DNA of 64,000 nt from the human T2T-CHM13v2.0 reference genome, Homo sapiens. This document shows positions 42,187 to 56,363 of the stretch, in pieces. The position numbers were made by a program, and so were the translations under genes. Below the pieces are notes generated by a model, which was given only the letters and a program-made list of their open reading frames with translations, ran no database searches and was not told the DNA's origin. Each line of letters starts with the position of its first letter. Within the stretch, counting starts at the first letter, position 1. The DNA lies in assembly GCF_009914755.1 (NCBI RefSeq), contig NC_060947.1; one strand, given 5' to 3'.

Positions 42187-45059
42187 GCTACACAGGATTA
42201 TTATAAGTTAATGTATGTGAACATATTTGAGGATATAATTACCAGAAGAAGGAAACTATAAAATATTTGAATGAGTTACCAAGGGATGCTATGGAATGTT
42301 ATTTTGAAATCATTAAAAACAGAAGGGCCTTTCCTTTGGTGGACAGGCATTAAGCACATTTGCAGGCAGAGGGAAGCAATCTGTAATCGGTGATCATCTT
42401 TCCATGTGGTAAAATAAACTAACCTGTTCTTTCTTGGCAAGCTGGCATTTGCCACAGAAACATAGAGGAGGCCACAACTGGTGCTTAGTCTTTCTCTTAT
42501 CAAATTTCTGAGATATATTCCTGAAGTTAGGGACTAAATCCATGCTAGGATGGTATGAAGTAAAAAGTATACGAAGATGTTTGCATAATGCTCTCCTTCT
42601 TATCCAAATGATTCACAAAGGAATACTTGAAACTTTGGGTTGGTTTGGGTGAAGTCATGCTAGATATAGGATAATGGACCTTTATTATCTTGTCTCAATG
42701 ACCTTGCCAATTACTTTCCAAGTGGATGTTTCTAAAGATTTAATGCTTTGAAAGAATCATTGTCACAATACGAGGTGGAGGGCATTCTCTGTGCAACTGG
42801 CAGTGTGTTGGAGGCATAGCCAATGTGTAGCCCACAATATAGTTAGCTTTCGCCAGGCCAGGAGTGGTGCATGTGAGCTGCAGCCCCACCAGAGCTCAAA
42901 GCCAGAATAAGGAAGTGCTTCAGAGGAAGTTAGACTAGGAGGATTTGCTAATCCTCAAGGATTCCCTACAGTCTTTGATTGTTCTTAGGTCTCCTGAAAG
43001 GGTCATTTGTGAACTACAGCTTCAAGACAGTCCTGTTCCCTCACATTTTTACCCAAGCTCAAAGTCATCATCTAATATTGGTTCTAACTATGAGATGAAT
43101 TGTGTCTCTGGCATGTCCTTCCAATTTTTGTAATGCCTGCAGCCATCTCTTCTCCTGTCTTCCATGGGCAGCTATTCACTAGTCATGATGTACCACATAC
43201 TATTTCCTAGATCCTGGAATTTCTCCAGTGCAATTATATCAGCTAGCATTTATTAGGTGCTAATTATATACCAGACACCATTTTAAATTCGTTGTGCTAA
43301 CTAACTAATGTAATTCTCATAACTGTCATTATCTTCATCTTACAGATGAGGAAACTGACACAGAGTAGCTTAGCAACCTTCTAGTTAGTAAGTGGTGAAG
43401 TTGAAATTCAAATATAGGGTTTTTTTTTTTTTTTTCGGATACCAGATCCTATTCTTATAACCACTAGTATCATTTTATATCTCTCCCAAAAAGCATATAC
43501 AAACAAACAACCACAACTTTTTTTCCCTCTCAGAAAGCTGAAGAAAGACTTGGAAATAGAACCCCTTTTCCTGTTACCTCCAAGTTCTGTTTTTATTTCC
43601 CTTATTGTAGACCCTGTCATCTGCGCTGTAATATTTGAAAACCAAAAAAATCTTTCTAGAAGTATTACATCTCTTTCCAGACTCTCTAAGGGCCTGGGAG
43701 CCTCTCATAGCAGCCAAGCCTCAAGGACAAGCCTGTGTAGGGTCCTACCAGGTTAAGATTGAGTGTCTATTCTCATGTTTGAACAGTGTTTTGAGGAAAC
43801 ACTGTATCTGTCTAGGAAAATAACCAAGATGTATTTTCAAAAGTAGTTGTATTTTTCTACTAAGTTGTTTTTCTGAAGGGTAAGCCAGTCTGTGATTTTT
43901 CTCTGCAGCAATGAACAAATTTGGAGGAGGAAAGAAATTCAGTAGAATTTGGTTTAAATTGACCATAAGGACATTTCCTACTCCCCCTTTTTTTAGTTTT
44001 AGTTTTGAATTTTTCATATATTTTCAAGAAGGGGCCATGTTTAGCTCCTCAGCTGCACAATTCTTTCCTTTCTTTCTTGATAAATTAAAGATGCTTCATG
44101 GGGATTTTTAAATGTCAGATCCTATAACAGGCAAATGCTGTATTGCACACAGTTATTTTTTTAAAGGCAAAAGTTTGTAGCTTTTTCAAAAAGAGTTTAA
44201 AGTGTAAATACTCTTTTTTATTCATTGTATTCCCATAGAGATGCTTCTGTTATGTCAAAATTGTGAACATTTGCCCTTTGTGGATAAAGTTCTCTTGATG
44301 TTTCCTCAAGGGGTGAAGAGGGTAACGAGAAGTTACATGTCTGTAGGTGTTTTTTAAAACAAGCTATATTGAATGCATGTATCCAAATGGTACTGCAGCA
44401 CCGGAGAAGGGAACACTATGGAAAAAAATTTTCCTGTTTGTAAATAGGAATCTGGCACCCACCCTCACCAAAGGTGCATTTTAATCTTTCCCACATAACT
44501 GCCTCTGTTCTCCTTGGATATGAACTAATTTACCTTACCTAATACAAAGAAGCTTATCAACTATAAAGATAGACCCAGAGGATTTGGATTTCTTTGCTCC
44601 TTTTCCATCCTACTGTTAGACACTTATTGCCAGTTTTCCAGTTAGGAGCATTGCAAAATTGCCAGGTAGGACTTTCAGCTAAAAGAAAAATGGTGACTTT
44701 TGATTAGTTGTGCAGACAAAAAAAGTCCCAAGAGAGGTTAATAAAAATTCAATGGGGTCAAAGATCTCAGTTACCAGATGGATAGTATGGCCTCTGCCTC
44801 AGGGGTCTTTATGAGCTACTTGTAAGATATAGGTTATCTCATCTTGTATCAATTAAAAACTCGGCCTAGCTATCAGGGTCTCTTGCCTTAGCACTGCCAT
44901 GAAGTAGAGAGCCACACAGGCCAAAGGGACACTGCCCTGCACATTCATATTTCATTCCATTTTCATTAACTTTGATGACTGGCTTGCTGAATCCTGGTAA
45001 GACTCTTATCACTGTCTTGCTGTCCTCATTAGTTTTTATAGGATGTAGGCCTAAAATTT

Positions 45060-46230
45060 AAAAAATAAAACTATTTTTTTTGAGGTATGGCATGCATATA
45101 GTAAATTGCGCAAATTTTAAGGGTGCATATCAATGCTTTTATTTTTTAACATATGTGATTATATCAAGATATAGAACATTACCAGCACCCCAGAAGGCTT
45201 CCTCATATCCCTTCCCAGTCAATAACCCCCTACCCAGAGGTAACCACTTTGTTCCCGTAGATTTGTGTGCCTGTTCTTGGATTTCATGTAAATGTAGTGA
45301 TATGGTAGCTAATTTTATGCATCTGGTTGATTTCAACATTCTTGTGCCTGTATCTTGGTGGATATTTGTACGCTCTTTGGTTATATACTTAGGAGTAGCA
45401 TTCCAGGGTCATGTGATAGAGGTATGATTGGTTTTAGTAGATACTGCCAAATAGTTTTCCAAGGTAGTTTTACCAGTTAACAATTTCACCAGCAATCTAT
45501 GAGAGTTCCAGTTGTTCCATGTTTTCAGTGCTTGGTATTGTCAGTCTTTTTCATTTTAGCTCTTCTGGTGGGTTTTGCATATCTCATTGTGGTTTTAATT
45601 TGCACTTCCCTGATGAGCAATAGTGATGAACACCTATTTATATGCTTGTGAGCCATTCGGATATTCTCCTCTATGAAGTGCCAGTTCAATTCTTTTATAT
45701 TTTTTAAAAATTAGATTGATTATGTTTTTCGTATTGATTTGTAGTTTAAAAAATGTATGAATGTAGTGGATAGAAGTCCTTTGTTAGATATATATTGTGA
45801 ATATTTTATCCCAGTCTGTGGTTGGCTTTTCATCCTCTTAAGGTATAATTAATTAATCTTTTCTTTCATGGTTAATGTTTTTTGTCCTCTGGGAAATATT
45901 TGCCTACCTAAGGTCATGAAGAGTTTCTCTGGTGGTGTGATCTAGAAGCTTTGTTGTTTTGACTTTCATTTTTAGGCCTATGATTCATTTCAAATCATTA
46001 TTAGTATTATTTTGGTATCTGGTATGAGGTAAGGGTCATGGTTCCATTGATTTATTTGTCTGTCCTTGAGCCAGTACTACGCTGTCTTAATTTCTCTAGC
46101 TCTGTAACTAGCCTTGATATCTGGTAGCATATGTCCTTCAATTTGTTCTTCCTGAAGATGTTTCACTATTACTAGCCTTTATTTATTCTTATGCATTTTA
46201 GAATCACTTTGTCCAAATTGCCCTTTGGGA
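45060..46230 (-). mobile_element. Old L1M fragment
   Basis: ctcattgtggttttaatttgcacttccctgat; ccagtactacgctgtcttaat. Confidence 0.75.
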
Positions 46231-46290
46231 GTGGTTTTGATCTTTTTGACTCATTAGTTTTCCCTTTGTCCCTCTAACTTCAAAATCTAG

Positions 46291-46436
46291 GTAACCTTTT
46301 AAGGTGGAGACCGGTGGCCTGTTTGGGGCAGTTCCCCTCTAGAGGGAGAATTTGTCTCTGAAGTACCAGGAGACTGCAGGAGATTTTCCTGTGCTTTTCC
46401 TACCCAGACACCAGCCCAGAACTCAGGTGACTTCAG
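46291..46436 (+). other. Candidate internal non-coding exon of the antisense transcript
   Basis: Pyrimidine tract + ctaac + tag at 46290, alternative acceptor ttttcctacccag at 46407, donor CAG|gtaaga at 46437. Confidence 0.25.
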
Positions 46437-47257
46437 GTAAGAAAAACTAGCCCTGCATTTTGGGCTTCTCAAGTTTCCAGCCCATTATTTTAGTGTCTCC
46501 CAATGGCCCAAAGTTATGCTCATTTCTCCTTTCCTCAGGAGAGTCCTTCTGCCTTACAGCCAAGCTTCATCTTCAACAGTGCCCAGAATTAGCAAATGCC
46601 ACAGGAAAGGAAAAAAGCCCCTGATTGTCAGTTCACTTAGAAAGGGCTCTTTAATCTCGTCCTTGCTTATCCTTAAACCTATCGATTTCGCAATTTATCT
46701 TTTTTTTTTTTGGTGGGGGCGGGTGTGGTTTTTTTTGTTGTTGCAGGAGCGTTCACATCCTGTTTGGAAACAAAGTCTGCAAATTGTTTAATAGGCCGAG
46801 CCTTGATATCCGCATCCCTCTCAGCTCTATCACAGGTAAGTAGTTTATGAACATTTGGGCCAATTCAGTAGGTCAGTGGAAAGATAGGTAATGGATATAT
46901 CCCTGAACCTCCCAGTCACAGATATTGGGGATTTCCTAGGGGACTGATCTGCCTAAGTCACATTCAACTTGGAATTCAGCCAGTTTCTAGGGATAGCAAA
47001 TGACATTAACATTCTCAGTTCTATTCCTGCTTAGGAGAATGAGATGTCAGCTCTGGCCCTGAATAAGGCAAATTTGCTCCTGTAGTCACCTAAATTTGTG
47101 CCCTCTAGCACAGGACTTTAGAAGTCCGACCTGGGCTGACATCCAGCTCTGCATCTTTACTTATGTGATCATGGGCAAATTACTGAATCTCTCTAATCCT
47201 CAGTTTTTCCACCTATAACTTCATAGGCTGATTTTATTGTGAGGATTAAATGTACTA

Positions 47258-47577
47258 CAGGTTGAGTATCTCTAATCTCAACATTTGAAATACTAAATGC
47301 TTCAAAATCCAAAACGTTTTGAGCACCAACATGACACCTTTGCTTTCTGATGGTTTAGCGTACACAAACTTTGTTTAGTGCACAACATTATTAAACATAT
47401 TCTATAAAATTACATTCAGGCTATGTGTATAAGGTGTTTATGAAACATAAATGAATTTCATGTTTAGACTTGGGTCCCATTCCTAAGATATCTCATTATG
47501 TATATTTAAATACTTCAAAATCTGAAATCCAAAACACTTCTGGTACCAAGCATTTTGGATAAGGGATACTCAACCTG
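47258..47577. mobile_element. Tigger4/Zombi-like MITE inserted in a MIR
   Basis: TIRs caggttgagtatc / gatactcaacctg, flanked by TA on both sides. Confidence 0.88.
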
Positions 47578-47729
47578 TAATATAAGAAAAGTGGGTTTTA
47601 CAGTCCTTGACACACAATAGGTCTCCCATTAATGTGACAATTTATTAGAAAAATTTTTATGGGTACATCATTGCATCTGACATATGCTTTCAGAGGCTGG
47701 GGATTGTGCTTGGTTACTTTTTTGAGGGG

Positions 47730-48591
47730 AGTAAAATTTACATATAGTGAAATGTACAAATCTTTAGAGTACCATTCAATGAGTTTTGACACACGCATTC
47801 TCCTGTGTAACCCACAACCGTACCTAAACATGATCATTACCATCACTCTAGAAAGTTCCTTTATGCCCCTTCCCAATCAGTTCCTACTCCCATAAATGCA
47901 AGCACTATTCTGATTTCTTTCTACATAGATTATTTTGCATTTTCTAAAATTGTATATGGATGGAATCATACAGCATATAATCTTTTGTGTCTGGCTTCTT
48001 TCATTAAGTATAATGTTGATTATTCCTCCATGTTGTTGTCCCTCTCAGTAGTGCCTTTCTTTTTATTGCTTATTAGTATCACATTGTGTGAATATACCAC
48101 AGTTTGCTTATTCATAATCTTCTTGATAGTTACCTGAGCTCTTTCTACTTTTTGGTGATTATGCATACAACTTCTATAGCTATTCTTGTAAAAGTCACTT
48201 TGTGAACTTTCACTTAATTTGGGTAAATACCTATGAGTAGAATTGCTGGGATATAGATAGGTGCATGATTAGTTTTATAGGAAACTGATAGATGTTTTTC
48301 CAAAAACATAATATGATTTTATGCTCCTACCAGTAGTATAAATGTGTGTGAGAATTCTGGTTCCTCTACATCTTTGTCAATATTTGATGTTGTCAGTCTT
48401 TAATTTTAGCCAATCTACTGAGTATATTGCGGTATCTTAGTGTGATGTCAATTTGCATTTCTTTGATTACTAATAATGTTGAGGATGTTTTCATGTGCTT
48501 ATTAGCTCTTCATTTGAATTGTCTGTTCAGATCTTTTGGCCATTTTTAAGTTGGGTTGTTTGTCTTTTTATTATTGAGTTGTAGGGGTTCT

Positions 48592-48626
<35 letters not shown>

Positions 48627-48780
48627 GCGTGTGTGCGCACACACACACATATATCTGACAATGAACTTTATATATTCTGGTTGAAAGTTCATTGTCAGAT
48701 ATATATTTTGTGAATATTTTCTCTCAGTCTCTGGGTTGCCTGTTCATTTTATTAACTGTATGATTTGATGAGTTTGTCCA
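47730..48780 (-). mobile_element. Old L1M 3' fragment containing a (TA)n/(CA)n tract
   Basis: atggaatcatacagcat..gtctggcttctttca; gggtaaatacctatgagtagaattgctgg. Confidence 0.75.
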
Positions 48781-50169
48781 TTTTTGTATCCCCTGTTTCC
48801 CACATGCATGGTTGAAGCTTGATAATATTTACTGAATGAATGAGCTGAAAGTTGTTCCTCCCTCCCTCCTTCCATTATTTCTTTTTTTCAAAGACACTTA
48901 CTGATTATATACTATGCTGGCAAGCACTCTTCTGTTCTTTGGGGATATAGCAGAAAACAAATCAGACAGATTTCTTAGTCTCATGACAATTACATTTTAG
49001 TCTATATGTATGTGGGGGTAAGGTGAGAGACAGAAAAACAAATAATTAAGCAAGAAAATGTGAGCTAGTTATAGATACCATCATGCAAAAATGAAATTTG
49101 TGTGTAATGGGAAAGGAATGATTAGGGGCTTTACCCAGGTTGAGGGGTAAGAAATCTGAGGAGATAATATTAAAGTAGATATCAGAATGACACGAAATCA
49201 TTCCCCACTCCTCCCCCACCAAGGAGAAAGGGATCCCAGGCAGAGGATATAGCTAATAAAAAGTCCCTTAAAGTGAGTTAAGGCTAGGCATAAACTATCC
49301 AAAAGACCCCTTTAGGCTAGTTAAGGTGTCCAGAGTTGGTTGCTTTGGAAATTACCATAACTGGCATAAGCTGATGCCACACTCTTACTCTTTCTTATTA
49401 TTGGAATACTTAGCAGTTTCTTCAAGTTTCTCCTTGCCCTCTCCTCACCCACTAGTTGCTAAATTCTGAGATTGAGAATAAAAAATAAAAAAAAAGCTAA
49501 TACAAGGGTCAAGAAAGTTAAGGCAAGGTCACTAATTTTTTTTCCCATCAAAAGTGACTGAGTCCCCCGCCCCACAAAAAAACTCATGGGCCACATAAAG
49601 TAATAAGTAACTACATTTCTCTTATAAGAGAGCAAAATATGGAATGTTCTACCTCTCTGCTTTTTATGTTTAGGTTGTGTAATGTACAACTCAATAAATA
49701 CAATAAAAATTTGATGAATCAAATATAATTTATTCCAATTTTTTTCCAGTTTTAGGAGAGAGAGACAAGAAAAGATGATGGAAAAGGTTAAGAGTAGATG
49801 GAGATAGAGAGGGTGTGAAATAGAATGAAACACATAAGTGAATAAATGGAAGCATATTGATCAAGAGGAGGAATAAAAGAGTCCCAGAGGAAGATAGAGA
49901 AGCTGAGAAAAAAAACTGGGTGAATGGGAAGTCAGAAGTTAAATAGGTTTTGTGTGAGTGTGTTCCTGTCATCTTCTTGTGCCTTTGGGCTGTATATACC
50001 ATCTAGTAGTTATTGCTTCCTTTGAAAAATGTGATGGTGCTCTCTTACAATATTTAACACACATCTTTCTTCTGTGTTTTCCTTCTGATGAGCTGATGCA
50101 TGTTCTAAATAAATGCCAAATTCCTTTCCTTGATTTCTCTCCATATTTTCTTACATGAGACGTTTTTCT

Positions 50170-51850
50170 CTTAAATCAAACAAACAGATCCTTTGAATTA
50201 ATAAAACAAACTGCTCTGCCTCTAGTACCCGTTCTCCTATATTCCATATGGAAAATTGCCTCCAACAAAATCGTGCCTTCTGGTCATTATCGTTGTGACC
50301 CTTATCATCAGGACAAACCCCATGTGTACTGGTAGGATTTTGGACAAAAAAAAAATGTAGTGATCTGATAGGACTTAGGCTAAGTGGAGATACTATACAA
50401 CTGAGTGGGTCAAAAAAGGCCCTGTGAAGACCAGCAAGCTGTATGTGCAAATCACAGACCATCTGGCTGATGATTTTCTGTACTCCAATAAATATTCAAG
50501 GATTATAGTCAGCTGAAAGTGAAGCCTGTGGCTTGCTGGGCCCCACTCTGGTCAGAACTGCTGAAAACTGGGCAATAATAGACTTGGTAGAATCCTAAAG
50601 GAGTTATATAGATGACTACTTCCTAAGACTTTCAACTAGGAAAAGCCTGACTGGGACTGGAGAAAGGAAGTTAGCCCAATTTACAGAATTAATAGCCAGA
50701 AATTTAACATGTAGATATACCCAAGAAAAAAACTGGTCAAAGGTATATAGCTACACTGATCAGCCATATAGACCTGGACTATTGCAGGAAAAACAATCTG
50801 GTGAAGGGAGATATGAAAATAAATTGGTGAAAGAATTTAGAAATTCTTATAAAGACATGTGTCAGCTCATTAGAACAGAAAAGCAGAATAATCTATTTGG
50901 AATGAGAGGGGAGATAATCTAGGCCCCCAAAACTAATGTAGACCCTGAAGCTTCGGGGACTTTAAGTTTCAACTCAGCTCCCTTTTCAGTTCAATTTAAG
51001 GTTGTAGGATGGGCTTGTGAAACCTCAGGGCATATGGGCATGTATGTGCCAGGTTAGCAGAGAAGAAAGAGTTAGAAAACCTGTGAATCAAATAAACAAG
51101 TGAGTAAGAAATATGAGTGATATCAAAATATTAAAAACTTCTTGCATCCTCAGCAGATTCATTTTAAGTGTGGTGGGGAGTGGTAAACCAGACAAATGTA
51201 GCAGGTAGATTATATTGAGCCAATATCTAGATTTTCAAACAAATAATATTGCCTTACACAAATATATACTTACTCAGAAAGTGGGTTTGCAAAGCCCACT
51301 AGACACGCAGATGAAAATAGTACAACCATGGCTTTAGATAAAGTTGGAAGAACTAGCTGCTAGATATGGAAGTGGGGCAGTAATAGGAAATTATCAAGGA
51401 ACTAGTTTTATAACTGAAATTCTCCAAAGTTTGGCAAAATATGGAGAATATAGGACTTTCATTTACCATAAACTCCCCAGGCTGCAGGGCATCTGGAAAC
51501 TTTAATGAATGGATTCCTAGAAACACAGAAAGAATTCAGCAGCACCCAGATATAAATGGCAATGAGGCAAAGGTGCTAATAATTGACAGACCCTGCGTGA
51601 GTGTATCCTTCCTCAAAAGAGATGCTCAAGAAAGACAGACAAACTACCTATACTCACTTTTCTCCCAAATCTCTTAACAAGAGATAAAGACCATGAGGTT
51701 TTCAAAGGAAAGAGAAGTAGTAGAGCCTCACAAGGCCAGCAACAAAGGAGGGGCTATAGTTAGACATATCGTTTCAACCTTAACAGCAATTCTTGATAGG
51801 GGTAACCAGTAGCCATAGCCTGTAGGATGGATAAAGGCTCAAAGATACTA
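50170..51850 (+). mobile_element. Decayed pol (RT connection/tether, RNase H, integrase) of an ancient class III (ERV-L/ERV-S-like) provirus
   Basis: Hand translation gives colinear motifs: ALPLVP (50213), AFWSL..GFWTK (50335), KWRYY..GP..TSKL (50382), GERKLAQFTELIA..EKNWSKVYSYTD (50659-50760), WTIAGKTIW..HVSAH..WNERGD (50775-50915), WACETSGH (51010), *QVDYIEP..YCLTQIYTYSESGFAKP (51199), LAARYG..NYQGTSF (51389), FHLP*TPQAAGHLE..MNG (51458-51510). Many stops and frameshifts. Confidence 0.85.
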
Positions 51851-52159
51851 ATCTTTATATCTCTCTTTTTTATTATTAGGTCTGCTTTGCTGTTTTCTCT
51901 TGGCTGTGACAGTCCGCCTGATGGTCATTATAACAGCAGTTCACCATTAGTACAAACAAGAGTACCATACATAAATTCTGTGCGCGGTTTACCAACATCA
52001 TCAAAAAGTTATATTGTTCTACTGTTCTCATTCTTTACTTGATCACCATCATAATCATATCAACATCCTAATTTCTGGCCTAAACCAACCACAGAACCAT
52101 TGTTAGCCCCTTATACTATCCATTGTCACCAAGAGTCCATTTGCTAGAGCTTTTAGTGA

Positions 52160-52525
<366 letters not shown>

Positions 52526-52779
52526 GACCCAATTTCTGCCCCCGTCCCCAGGGATGTGAAAACTGATCATTTCTCTGTTTTAATATATTCTTATTTTCTG
52601 TATATTAGCAATATGTGTTTTCTCATAGTTCTGCACATTTTCATTACTAATAACCCATATAACAAGTGAGATTTGATTTACTTCTAGCAAAAGCTGGTCT
52701 TTTTTCATCTTTGTTGTTATTCAGAAAGTTCTGTCTTTTGCCATGTAGGTCTCCCTTTACCTGTACTTACTCTCATGCT

Positions 52780-53600
52780 AGAATTTCTGATGATGGGAGC
52801 AAACAATAGTAAAGAAAAGAAATTCCTTGCCTAATTATGGAGTGGAGAACTGACGAACTCTATCACATCTTGGGACTAATTTCACTGCTCTCCAATGAAT
52901 GCAAATGAAAAGGGGAATATCCCCCAGGGTAGCATTACAGTAAATGAATACATTCACATTAACAAGACAGTGTTGGGATACTTTTATTTGAAAGGATATA
53001 ACTCCTTACTTATCCTTTAAGAAAGCATGTGTCCGACAAAAAATGCTATAGCAGACTAAGGGAGGTAATTTTAAAAGAGTACTATCTACCAGATAATAAA
53101 AGTGCAGAAAGGTTTTCAAATGACTGTTGCCAAGGAGAAAACTGAAAAAGCTGGGACCAAGAGTTCCAGTGCAGGACTGTTCTTGCAAATTCTGACCACA
53201 TTGTAGCTACTTTGCACTATTATTCCCCAAATGGAAAAGGCACACTATACCAAATAATCAAAGAGAGAAGTAATAGAAGGGCTAAGCAAAGCCCTACAAG
53301 GACTATTCACCAATGGAAAGACAAACACTCACCATATTGGACTAAATATCTATGGACTAGATATAGTCCTTAGGCATCAAAGCAGGAAGATGCTACAACC
53401 CCATAATATGTGGAGCTGGCTGGACCCTTGTTTTCCTGGGTCACCTGAACAGATTGTACTGTAATGGTACCTCAGGAACTAGATAAGATATATTCCAGTG
53501 TTTGCTTTGATTCTGTAATTTTATGTGCTTAAGGATTGTTAAGATATAACCCCCGCTCCAAGGAATGGATTGTTGTATTAAGTATGTTTGCTCTATGGAG
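52780..53600 (+). mobile_element. Possible env remnant of the same provirus
   Basis: Frame from 53210 reads LCTIIPQMEKAHYTK*SKREVIEGLSKALQGL...LNIYGLDIVLRHQ...MWSWLDP, resembling TM heptad + immunosuppressive domain + membrane-proximal region. No CX6CC seen. Confidence 0.4.
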
Positions 53601-53676
53601 CAGAATTAGAGTTAATAGTGAAAAGAAATATTTAGGAAATAAGAAAATATTTAGGAACAAGAACTAGTGGGGACGG

Positions 53677-54319
53677 TGTTTTCAGGAGAGAGAAGCAAAT
53701 TAATAAATTGTCAACAGTTATGCGACGGTTTATGATGGAAAGCCATGATATGGAGTTAGTTTCTAAACAGGTTTATGAACAAAGCCCTGTTTTTGTCTTC
53801 TGCAAATTAGCCAACCCTAAGATGTTGCTATAAACAGCTGGTAGGCGATTGACATAAGTCATGTATCTGAAAGCTCAATTAGATGGAGAATTATTAACTA
53901 GTTTAGTCCACTGACTGGATATCGCTGATTGAAATCCTGCATCTCCTCCAGGAGAATGGAGTGAGTGGCTGATCCTTTATGCAAATTAGCCCTTTTCTGT
54001 ATCTTCTTAAGACCAGTGTTAAAGCCAATTATTATATAGCATGGCAGAAAAGAGAGGGGCTCATCATTCTGAGACAAGCTTAAAGGTGTGAAAATCAAGG
54101 AAGATAGGCTGGTAGATGGCATTAGATTAGGTAGTACAAGTTTTCATCCCTATTTGTTTGGGCTAAAATATGTGGGGAGTTGTGCCTATATAAATTCTTA
54201 TGTGTGATGATTACTGCTAGTTATTATCTTATGATTGTTTACAATCTGTATTAGCTATTGATCTAAACCATTTTATTGTTTTCTTTCAAGAGATTTTAAC
54301 TAATAAACTTTCATTCACA
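53677..54319 (+). mobile_element. Possible degenerate 3' LTR
   Basis: Purine-rich agtggggacgg precedes TG at 53677; two TGCAAATTAGCC copies; TATATAAA near 54185; AATAAA at 54302; CA at 54319. No partner LTR found. Confidence 0.25.
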
Positions 54320-54340
54320 AATCAAAAAAACGTGTGGTCA
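54302..54340 (+). terminator. Candidate polyadenylation signal for the TRPC5OS transcript
   Basis: AATAAA at 54302-54307, CA dinucleotides 5-20 nt downstream, then a GT-rich element (cgtgtggtc). Confidence 0.5.
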
Positions 54341-54659
54341 TCTTAAATTACCTGGTGGTGAATTTGGAGGCTACCAAATGGGCCCACAAGAACTTCACTC
54401 AACGTAAGGTAGCAGAGCATAATAAGAGAGAATGTTGTACCAGGATTCTGAAGTTATACTTCTGGCTTTGTCAGATGATCTTAAGCAAATCTCTAAACAT
54501 AGTCCTTTCTCATTTGCAAAATGAGGGTTATTAATAAATTTTCTGCTTACCTTCAGTGATAATAAGGAACAAATGAAATAATAGTTTTCAAAGCCTTTGG
54601 CATGACATATCTGGCATTGAGACAGAATATATGAAATCACGACTTTTCAGGAATATCTG

Positions 54660-55140
54660 AAAAATGTGCATGCGTATGTTCATTGCAGCACTATTCACAA
54701 TAGCAAAGACATGGAATCAACCCAAATGCCCATCAATGATAGACTGGATAAAGGAAATGTGGTACATATACACCATGGAATACTATGCAGCCATAAAAAG
54801 GAACAAGATCATGTCCTTTACAGGGACATGGATGGAGTTGGAAGCTATTGCCCTCAGCAAACTAACGCAGGAACAGAAAACCAGAAGCCACATGTTCCCT
54901 CGTATAAGTGGGAGCTGAACTATGAGAACACATGGACACAGGGAGGGGAGCAACACACGCTGGGGCCTGTTGGGGGCTGGGGTGGGGAGAGAGAGCATCA
55001 AGAATGGATTCCCAGCTAATGGATGCTGGACTTAATACCTAGGTGATGGGTTGATCAGTGCAGCAAACCACCAAGGCACGTTTACCTATGTAACAAACCT
55101 GCACATCCTGCAAATGTACCCCAGAACTTAAAAAGAAAAT
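54660..55140 (+). mobile_element. L1P 3' end
   Basis: ORF track MFIAALFTIAKTWNQPKCPSMIDWIKEMW; 3'UTR and A-rich tail. Confidence 0.93.
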
Positions 55141-55685
55141 TCACCCATCTGCAAAAAGTTTGTATGACAATACCTGAAAGTCTATTTGATATGAAATAAT
55201 TATCCAATAGTTTTACACCTGTTTTCTAAGAGATAAGAGCTTTCTTATTCTACTTCATGCCAAAGTTAGAGTTTGGAATCAGCTATTGTTTCATTCTTTG
55301 GAGCTGATTTTTTTTTTTTTTAACCAAATTGAATTCTTTTGGGGAGTCTACTTGAGTTCTAGTAGGAATAATAATGAGGAAAAAACAATATGAAAAAGCC
55401 CTTCAGGAAATAATTATATTCCATTTAAGGCTAAGATTTTGTTCCTGAGGGGGTTATGTAACTCTGAACGTTATTAACCCATTGTGATCCAACTTGATTT
55501 TTATGATTTTTTTTTTACATGAAAGCTATTGTGTTTTTGTATTGACAGTCTTACCTTAATAGACTAGATGTACTTAGTGATACCTCTTGGGAATACTGCT
55601 TATATTTTTTCAGAGATCCTACTCCCTCCAGCCCATATTTAAAACTGGTTTTCTTCTGTCTATTTAACCCTCAGAAAGTTCACAA

Positions 55686-55727
55686 ACCAACTAACCAACC
55701 AACCAACCAACCAACCAACCAACCAAC
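55686..55727. repeat. (AACC)n tetranucleotide repeat
   Basis: About 10 units. Confidence 0.93.
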
Positions 55728-55976
55728 AGAAAATCCCTAAAGAAAGAAAAAATGACTTCTAGTTCCTGAAGTTAGTTATTTGTGAATTACTTGTATTGAT
55801 AAATAAAACTGTCAGTTTCCAATATCACATCTCTTCAGGGTAATAAATAATCCTTGGAGGTGACTGCCATTATACTTATGAAGGTTGGAACTGCATTTTA
55901 CAAGATAAGGAAAATCACTGAAGTCTTATACCTGGTCACAATTTCATCTTAAAGACCCTAGAAAAATGCTGAAGGC

Positions 55977-56363
<387 letters not shown>

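What the first reader, a model, noticed from the sequence alone, without database searches (positions are those of the whole stretch)
50170..51850. Deeply decayed ERV-L/ERV-S-like pol missed by the ORF track
Seen: nine motif blocks in the correct order and near-correct spacing, covering the tether (GFWTK, KWRYY..GP..TSKL), RNase H (AQFTELIA, YTD, HVSAH, WNERGD) and integrase (WACETSGH, QVDYIEP, NYQGTSF, PQAAGHLE). The second catalytic D (now Tyr, one base from GAT, at 51392) and the E (51496) are about 35 codons apart. Established: WQVDYIGP, DTYSGYGFA, SDQGTHFT and PxAAGxIE are class III ERV signatures. I saw no dUTPase motifs after integrase and no RT core, gag or 5' LTR upstream. Inference: a very old insertion, possibly a lineage poorly represented in repeat libraries.
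Basis: partly seen in the sequence, partly recalled or inferred. Interest (0 to 1): 0.7.

Follow-up and report, generated by a model that had tools for sequence, protein, structure and literature searches.

The report
Ancient broken retrovirus fragment beside TRPC5OS
A broken scrap of a retroviral polymerase gene lies in an intron of the human X-linked genes TRPC5 and TRPC5OS; it is not one of the common HERV-L copies, is likely much older than they are, and likely does nothing today.

Summary
All 12 motifs searched are at the stated places. Frameshift-aware alignments of 13 of 13 class III pol proteins score 86-144 against shuffle maxima of 39-53, covering tether, RNase H and integrase (about 50240-51530). 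The piece is dead: 14 stops in 296 codons, at least six frame changes. No RT upstream and no dUTPase downstream were detected. It is class III-like, but not a HERV-L copy: HERV-L copies are 85-90% identical to each other, this one about 60% to them, and it is A-rich. Its lineage is unresolved (long branch). Four unnamed proteins at 60-65% identity look like copies in other mammals, suggesting great age; the species are unknown. My added idea, that the provirus runs on through TRPC5OS's last exon as env plus LTR, was tested and is mostly unsupported; weak hints remain and the tests had low power. Dfam annotation could not be checked. Verdict: real, old, probably inert; modest interest.

The parts
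50242..50459 (+). pol tether (connection) remnant, split over two frames
   Evidence: P0068 score 49, 0/200 shuffles; P0057 score 53, 1/200
50623..50921 (+). RNase H remnant, split over two frames; 7 stops in 50775-50921
   Evidence: (scores 73 and 60, 0/200 shuffles; two other references not significant)
51001..51528 (+). integrase zinc finger and catalytic core remnant; 7 stops, two frame changes, Tyr at the second catalytic Asp position
51632..51730 (+). possible further retroviral sequence: 33-codon match to the post-integrase region of an A-rich class III copy (L084); borderline
   Evidence: score 60; 0/150 shuffles, 0/44 real windows, 1/40 whole-locus null; no DNA support (59/200), no extension
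51880..54330 (+). TRPC5OS last exon (annotation); its acceptor lies 384 nt after the integrase Glu; not shown to be retroviral
   Evidence: hub annotation; env tests negative
52190..52525 (+). TRPC5OS ORF, 111 aa, conserved across placental mammals; no retroviral similarity found
54046..54307 (+). LTR-like arrangement by eye: 14-purine run, TATATAAA, AATAAA; unproven
   Evidence: 2 to 21 of 147 AATAAA sites in the window show such an arrangement, by threshold; no paralogue

Best explanation
This is a broken, non-coding remnant of the tether, RNase H and integrase part of a retroviral pol gene, most like class III (ERV-L/ERV-S-like) elements and not a HERV-L copy, which likely entered the germ line early in placental mammal history and has likely decayed without function since. 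Shown: pol homology, loss of reading frame, distance from HERV-L, position antisense in a TRPC5 intron and sense in the last TRPC5OS intron (annotation). Inferred: integration as a provirus, later loss of the 5' half (LTR, gag, RT), neutral decay, removal from both transcripts by splicing, and the age.
For: Motifs; significant alignments; 14 stops in 296 codons, blocks alternate over three frames, CpG o/e 0.098. HERV-L-type copies have median pairwise identities of 85-90% (25 loci) but match this piece at only 59-66% over 94-158 nt; pol is 36% A against 26% in HERV-L; four HERV-L copies form a 92-100 supported clade without it in three trees. No DNA paralogue found. P0046-P0049, unnamed, match 50528-51072 at 60-65% over 65-93 codons, partly in non-pol frames, scoring 168-204 against at most 51 on three HERV-L copies; simulation puts 63% amino-acid identity at about 80% nucleotide identity.
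Against: No Pfam or PDB hit. The branch is long (1.15-2.5) and unplaced; AU tests reject neither sisterhood with HERV-L (p 0.47, 0.15) nor a place on the branch to class I (p 0.35). The species behind P0046-P0049 are unknown and their synteny untested, so orthology and age are inferred. The DNA search cannot see copies this decayed, so single-copy status is not shown. No class II, foamy or gypsy integrase was in the panel.
Confidence: 0.75

Rival explanations
1. It is an ordinary, heavily decayed copy of an old ERVL-class family that repeat libraries already model (family names such as ERVL-E, HERV16, ERV3-16A3 are recalled, not from a call).
For: Protein scores against HERV-L copies (116-137) are among the highest; the RNase H spacing ending W..V..YTD looks HERV-L-like by eye (recalled motif). 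Two copies each about 30% from their ancestor would not find each other. The human genome holds other low-copy class III families, found here at five loci.
Against: A-rich composition unlike HERV-L; no dUTPase; only 57-62% DNA identity to the A-rich family, whose members are 74-83% identical to each other; best single-protein match in 1.84 billion, apart from the probable orthologues, is a bichir element.
Confidence: 0.35
2. The provirus continues past integrase as a decayed env and 3' LTR; TRPC5OS arose inside it, using a splice acceptor near the end of pol and the LTR polyadenylation signal.
For: Acceptor 384 nt and purine run 2563 nt after the integrase Glu, a spacing that would fit an env-bearing provirus (own knowledge). 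Purine run + TATATAAA + AATAAA in 2 of 147 sites at strict settings, one being this site. A>T skew persists to about 51800 and returns at 52800-53400. One borderline 33-codon match after integrase. dUTPase-less class III groups carry env (PMC4724089, PMC8278194, passages).
Against: 14 class I-type TM references score mean 35.1 on 51800-54400 against 35.9 +/- 2.2 in 48 control windows, 30 of 48 as high. No match to the frog env, to two human class III env regions (0 of 6 frames) or to the A-rich family's env-like regions. No second LTR. The arrangement occurs at up to 21 of 147 sites at looser settings and the thresholds were set after seeing it. TRPC5OS profile finds nothing in 339 kb of fetched loci. 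Caveat: the same test misses the known tether/RNase H homology to a decayed copy (19/30), so power is low.
Confidence: 0.2
3. It is a 5'-truncated copy of a retroviral RNA inserted by L1 machinery, ending in AATAAA and a short A-run at 54302-54340.
For: No RT or upstream LTR; AATAAA followed by an A-run in the sequence.
Against: Needs the downstream 2.8 kb to be retroviral, which is unsupported (and others); no target-site duplication was tested formally; the A-run is 7 bases.
Confidence: 0.06
4. The motifs are chance, or belong to a class I or gypsy-type element.
For: No Pfam/PDB hits; one class I integrase scores 77; AU p 0.35.
Against: E 9.9e-8 genome-wide; three domains in order, each with at least two references beating shuffles; class III scores higher.
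Confidence: 0.04

Closest known systems
HERV-L (ERV-L; class III, MLT2 LTRs)
   Same: Tether, RNase H and integrase motifs and order; 30-35% amino-acid identity over 279-365 codons, top human hits.
   Different: About 60% DNA identity against 85-90% within HERV-L; A-rich; no dUTPase detected; outside the HERV-L clade in three trees.
HERV-S, HERVL32, HERVL66 (dUTPase-less class III groups with class I env; PMC4724089, passages)
   Same: Class III-like pol with no dUTPase detected.
   Different: No class I-type TM found. No copy identified as HERV-S was in my panel, so direct similarity is untested.
Low-copy A-rich class III family in the human genome (chr1:248.32 Mb, chrX:51.55, chr19:19.86, chr7:135.80, chr15:22.35; library name unknown)
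   Same: A-rich; longest DNA alignments to this integrase (scores 3937 and 3556 for two copies, 2129-2761 for three, HERV-L-type 2072-2788); sister in one tree at 84/85.
   Different: 57-62% identity against 74-83% within the family; protein scores 46-118, below HERV-L; the tree join is of two long branches.
Bichir (Polypterus senegalus) class III element P0050
   Same: Highest protein score, 144, 36% over 169 codons; shares ETSGHMG.
   Different: Fish element; not sister with support in any tree.
Chr17 ERV-L orthologue predating placental divergence (PMC3758187; abstract, parts 1-2 of 6, passages)
   Same: Ancient class III insertion, neutral.
   Different: That one has both LTRs and proven orthology in 11 mammals; this is a pol fragment with orthology only inferred.

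Membership tests
Class III ERV (spuma-like) | pol closer to class III than to class I/II | tested here: met
   18 of 19 class III integrases score 76-144, 3 class I 33-77; class II, foamy and gypsy not in the panel; AU does not reject a basal place (p 0.35)
Class III ERV (spuma-like) | RT-based placement | not testable with these tools
   no RT detected upstream
Class III ERV (spuma-like) | integrase D-x58-D-x35-E spacing (PMC8278194 table) | tested here: met
   184 nt and 104 nt against 177 and 108 expected from those counts, with frame changes; middle position reads Tyr
HERV-L | high DNA identity to HERV-L copies | tested here: not met
   59-66% over 94-158 nt against 85-90% among copies
HERV-L | dUTPase after integrase | tested here: not met
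   0 of 4 dUTPase-bearing references match 51500-52300; deletion or decay not excluded
HERV-L | MLT2 LTRs, Leu PBS | tested here: inconclusive
   8 HERV-L loci of 9.9 kb give no downstream match; no 5' end found
HERV-S / HERVL32 / HERVL66 | no dUTPase | tested here: met
HERV-S / HERVL32 / HERVL66 | class I-type env | tested here: not met
   panel redundant (about half of one group) and power limited
HERV-S / HERVL32 / HERVL66 | identity to the family models; Ser PBS | not testable with these tools
   no Dfam/Repbase library, no PBS
A-rich low-copy class III family | 74-83% DNA identity as among members | tested here: not met
   57-62%
Domesticated retroviral gene | open, conserved reading frame | tested here: not met
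   14 stops in 296 codons, at least six frame changes

The most novel reading that the evidence does not exclude
The fragment is the surviving pol of an env-bearing class III provirus of an undescribed lineage that integrated before placental mammals split, and the placental-wide testis microprotein gene TRPC5OS was born inside its env region, taking its last splice acceptor from the pol/env junction and its polyadenylation signal from the 3' LTR.
Probability: 0.17. Interest if true: 0.7.

Novelty: new member of a known kind. Interest (0 to 1): 0.3.

Why it matters
If age and lineage hold, it adds a dated fossil of a class III retroviral lineage that is neither HERV-L nor the A-rich family, and shows that such fossils slip under Pfam and DNA searches. 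If the bolder reading holds, it would give an origin for TRPC5OS, a paralogue-free, testis-expressed gene (PMC7436996, PMC9119839, passages) found here only in placental mammals. As shown so far it is an inert intronic fossil.

Tried and rejected
Pfam on 12 frames and 4 blocks, PDB on the integrase frame: nothing relevant. Rfam 46000-56000: two sub-threshold miRNA-family hits outside the element. IMG/VR with P0050: none. RT/protease upstream and dUTPase/IN tail downstream: none. Env: frog env, two human class III env regions, 14 TM references (12 of 80 PF00429 matches plus 2), A-rich family regions: none significant except one borderline 33-codon match and scattered 1/100, 1/40 and 1/30 results that are not collinear. 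A CX6CC-like motif near 53800 and a signal-peptide-like stretch at 51827-51900 were seen by eye; the first gained no support, the second overlaps the splice acceptor's pyrimidine tract and needs no env. Genome searches with the three downstream frames: self only or E>=0.67; the 27 weak hits match the pattern of antisense Alu read as protein with no DNA support, taken as chance. TRPC5OS as a piece of a longer or retroviral protein: none. Membership of HERV-L and of the A-rich family: rejected. No structure prediction was run. Literature: 10 searches, listings only unless noted; none showed this locus or an ERV link to TRPC5OS in title or abstract start; 'retrovir' has 0 occurrences in PMC9119839; 6 supplements of PMC4724089 hold no 'TRPC5' and no number beginning with my recalled hg19 prefixes (weak, coordinates recalled). 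PMC9604959 passages were read and not used. Earlier scan findings were not available, so overlap with them is unknown.

Full report
1. Observation. The integrase triad positions read D 51208, Y 51392, E 51496, 184 and 104 nt apart. Profile searches miss it: no relevant Pfam family in 12 frames or 4 single-frame blocks, no relevant PDB chain. Pairwise searches find it: the integrase frame gives 149 non-self matches in the human genome, best E 9.9e-8 at 32%. A frameshift-aware protein-to-DNA aligner scores 13 of 13 class III pol proteins at 86-144 against shuffle maxima of 39-53, 10 shuffles each. Domain by domain, tether is significant with 2 of 2 references and RNase H with 2 of 4. The shown extent is about 50242-51530.

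2. State. Seven aligned blocks (296 codons) hold 14 stops and alternate over three frames, at least six changes; CpG o/e is 0.098. RT/protease references find nothing in 42200-50400 (0 of 6 tests) and dUTPase/IN-tail references nothing in 51500-52300 (0 of 6). Gag was not tested in the window. Upstream lie old L1-like pieces at about 45300-46150 and 48000-48800 (translated matches to L1-bearing flanks; family label from recall).

3. Family. Eight top human hits carry HERV-L-type integrase motifs, 5 of 8 with a dUTPase motif (the label HERV-L rests on recalled motifs and on PMC4724089 passages). Such copies have median pairwise identities of 85-90% (25 loci) but match the window at 59-66% over 94-158 nt. 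The window's pol is 36% A, HERV-L 26%. In the 1.84-billion-protein search, 7 proteins pass E 0.001; the only long one is a bichir class III integrase protein, whose best PDB match is foamy virus integrase. Integrase scores: 18 of 19 class III rows 76-144 (one 45), three class I rows 33-77; a fourth class I stretch held no integrase and was dropped. In three trees the query is a long branch (1.15-2.5) outside the HERV-L clade (92/97, 100/100, 100/99) and outside a 9-12-row clade of dUTPase-bearing fish, frog, marsupial and primate elements. AU tests reject neither sisterhood with HERV-L (p 0.47, 0.15) nor a place on the class I branch (p 0.35). Of 8 further atypical hits, 6 were HERV-L-type, one a distant ERV-L and one (chr1:248.32 Mb) a different, A-rich class III element with four relatives. 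Two of these five give the best DNA alignments to the window (3937, 3556), but identity is 57-62% against 74-83% within the family, and their tree join (84/85) is of two long branches. So: class III-like, a member of neither family, lineage open.

4. Age. Two small unnamed proteins are 97% identical to the window's frames (near-identical copies). Four more (P0046-P0049) match 50528-51072 at 60-65% over 65-93 codons, partly in non-pol frames, and score at most 51 on three HERV-L copies. Random-DNA simulation gives 63% amino-acid identity at 80% nucleotide identity, deeper than anthropoid divergence (own knowledge). With no human DNA paralogue found they are probably orthologues in other mammals; species and synteny are unknown. 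The neighbouring TRPC5OS ORF has 43 matches among 49 candidates, all named ones placental, including armadillo, tamandua, elephant, manatee and golden mole, and a mouse-relative's N-terminal extension aligns to the human 5' UTR at 51955-52056 (score 71, 200 shuffles max 41). That dates the exon, not the pol piece. A class III orthologue of 104-110 Myr is already described (PMC3758187).

5. Does it run into TRPC5OS? The last acceptor is 384 nt after the integrase Glu; a 14-purine run ends 2563 nt after it, followed by TATATAAA and AATAAA. This arrangement occurs at 2 to 21 of 147 AATAAA sites depending on thresholds chosen after the fact. Env tests are negative: 14 TM references, mean 35.1 against 35.9 +/- 2.2 in 48 control windows; frog env; two human class III env regions; A-rich family regions. 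One 33-codon match at 51632-51730 is borderline (0/150 shuffles, 0/44 real windows, 1/40 for the whole locus), with no DNA support (59/200) and no extension. Power is low: the same method misses the tether/RNase H homology between the window and the chr1 A-rich copy (19/30). No second LTR was found. TRPC5OS has no longer homologue, Atlas look-alike or match in 339 kb of fetched loci. The link is therefore unproven and kept at about 0.2.

6. How it most likely works. It does not: a provirus integrated in the germ line (inferred), lost its 5' half (inferred from absence), decayed (shown) and is spliced out of TRPC5 (antisense) and TRPC5OS (sense) transcripts (annotation). Antisense orientation to the long host gene is the usual survival pattern (PMC1794541, listing and abstract start only).

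7. Novelty and score. New member of a known kind. None of 10 literature searches showed this locus in a title or abstract start; subscription papers and Dfam are not covered, and most supplements were not seen. Interest 0.3; the bold reading has probability 0.17 and would merit 0.7.

Noticed in passing
L077-L079 (chr1:248,312,500-248,322,400, minus), L080/L084 (chrX:51.546-51.550 Mb), L081, L082, L083: A low-copy, A-rich (38-42% A in four of five) class III ERV family, 74-83% identical among five copies and distant from HERV-L; RT, tether, RNase H, integrase, no dUTPase detected, then a long A-rich env-like region without Pfam match, about 2.3 kb longer in the chrX copy. Library name unknown.
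   Followed up: partly
L050-L051 (chr1:225.72-225.73 Mb, minus) and L052 (chr19:30.38 Mb): Class III provirus with LTRs 88% identical, gag-like, pol, dUTPase-bearing region and a class I-type TM; dUTPase plus env together differs from the HERV-L and HERV-S patterns given in PMC4724089 and recalls XtERV-S (PMC8278194).
   Followed up: partly
P0072 (Mantella aurantiaca): Class III integrase-dUTPase joined to a 460-aa env-like region with no Pfam family and no human match.
   Followed up: partly
window 52190-52525: TRPC5OS: N-terminal helix-like stretch and acidic repeats conserved in all four placental superorders, no marsupial match among named hits, no paralogue or longer form; candidate de novo gene.
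   Followed up: partly
window 46291-46436 and 46747-46835: The two middle TRPC5OS exons lie directly after an old L1-like stretch (about 45100-46290) and may be repeat-derived; by eye and recall only.
   Followed up: no
window 53850-54030: One frame resembles antisense Alu read as protein (best score 61) without DNA similarity; taken as chance.
   Followed up: yes
window 47264-47339 and 48588-48654: Sub-threshold Rfam matches to mir-1290 and mir-297, probably a DNA-transposon hairpin and a TA/CA microsatellite.
   Followed up: no
L071 (chr4:123.95 Mb): Distant ERV-L-like integrase remnant, 58-65% to HERV-L copies, cut by L1.
   Followed up: no
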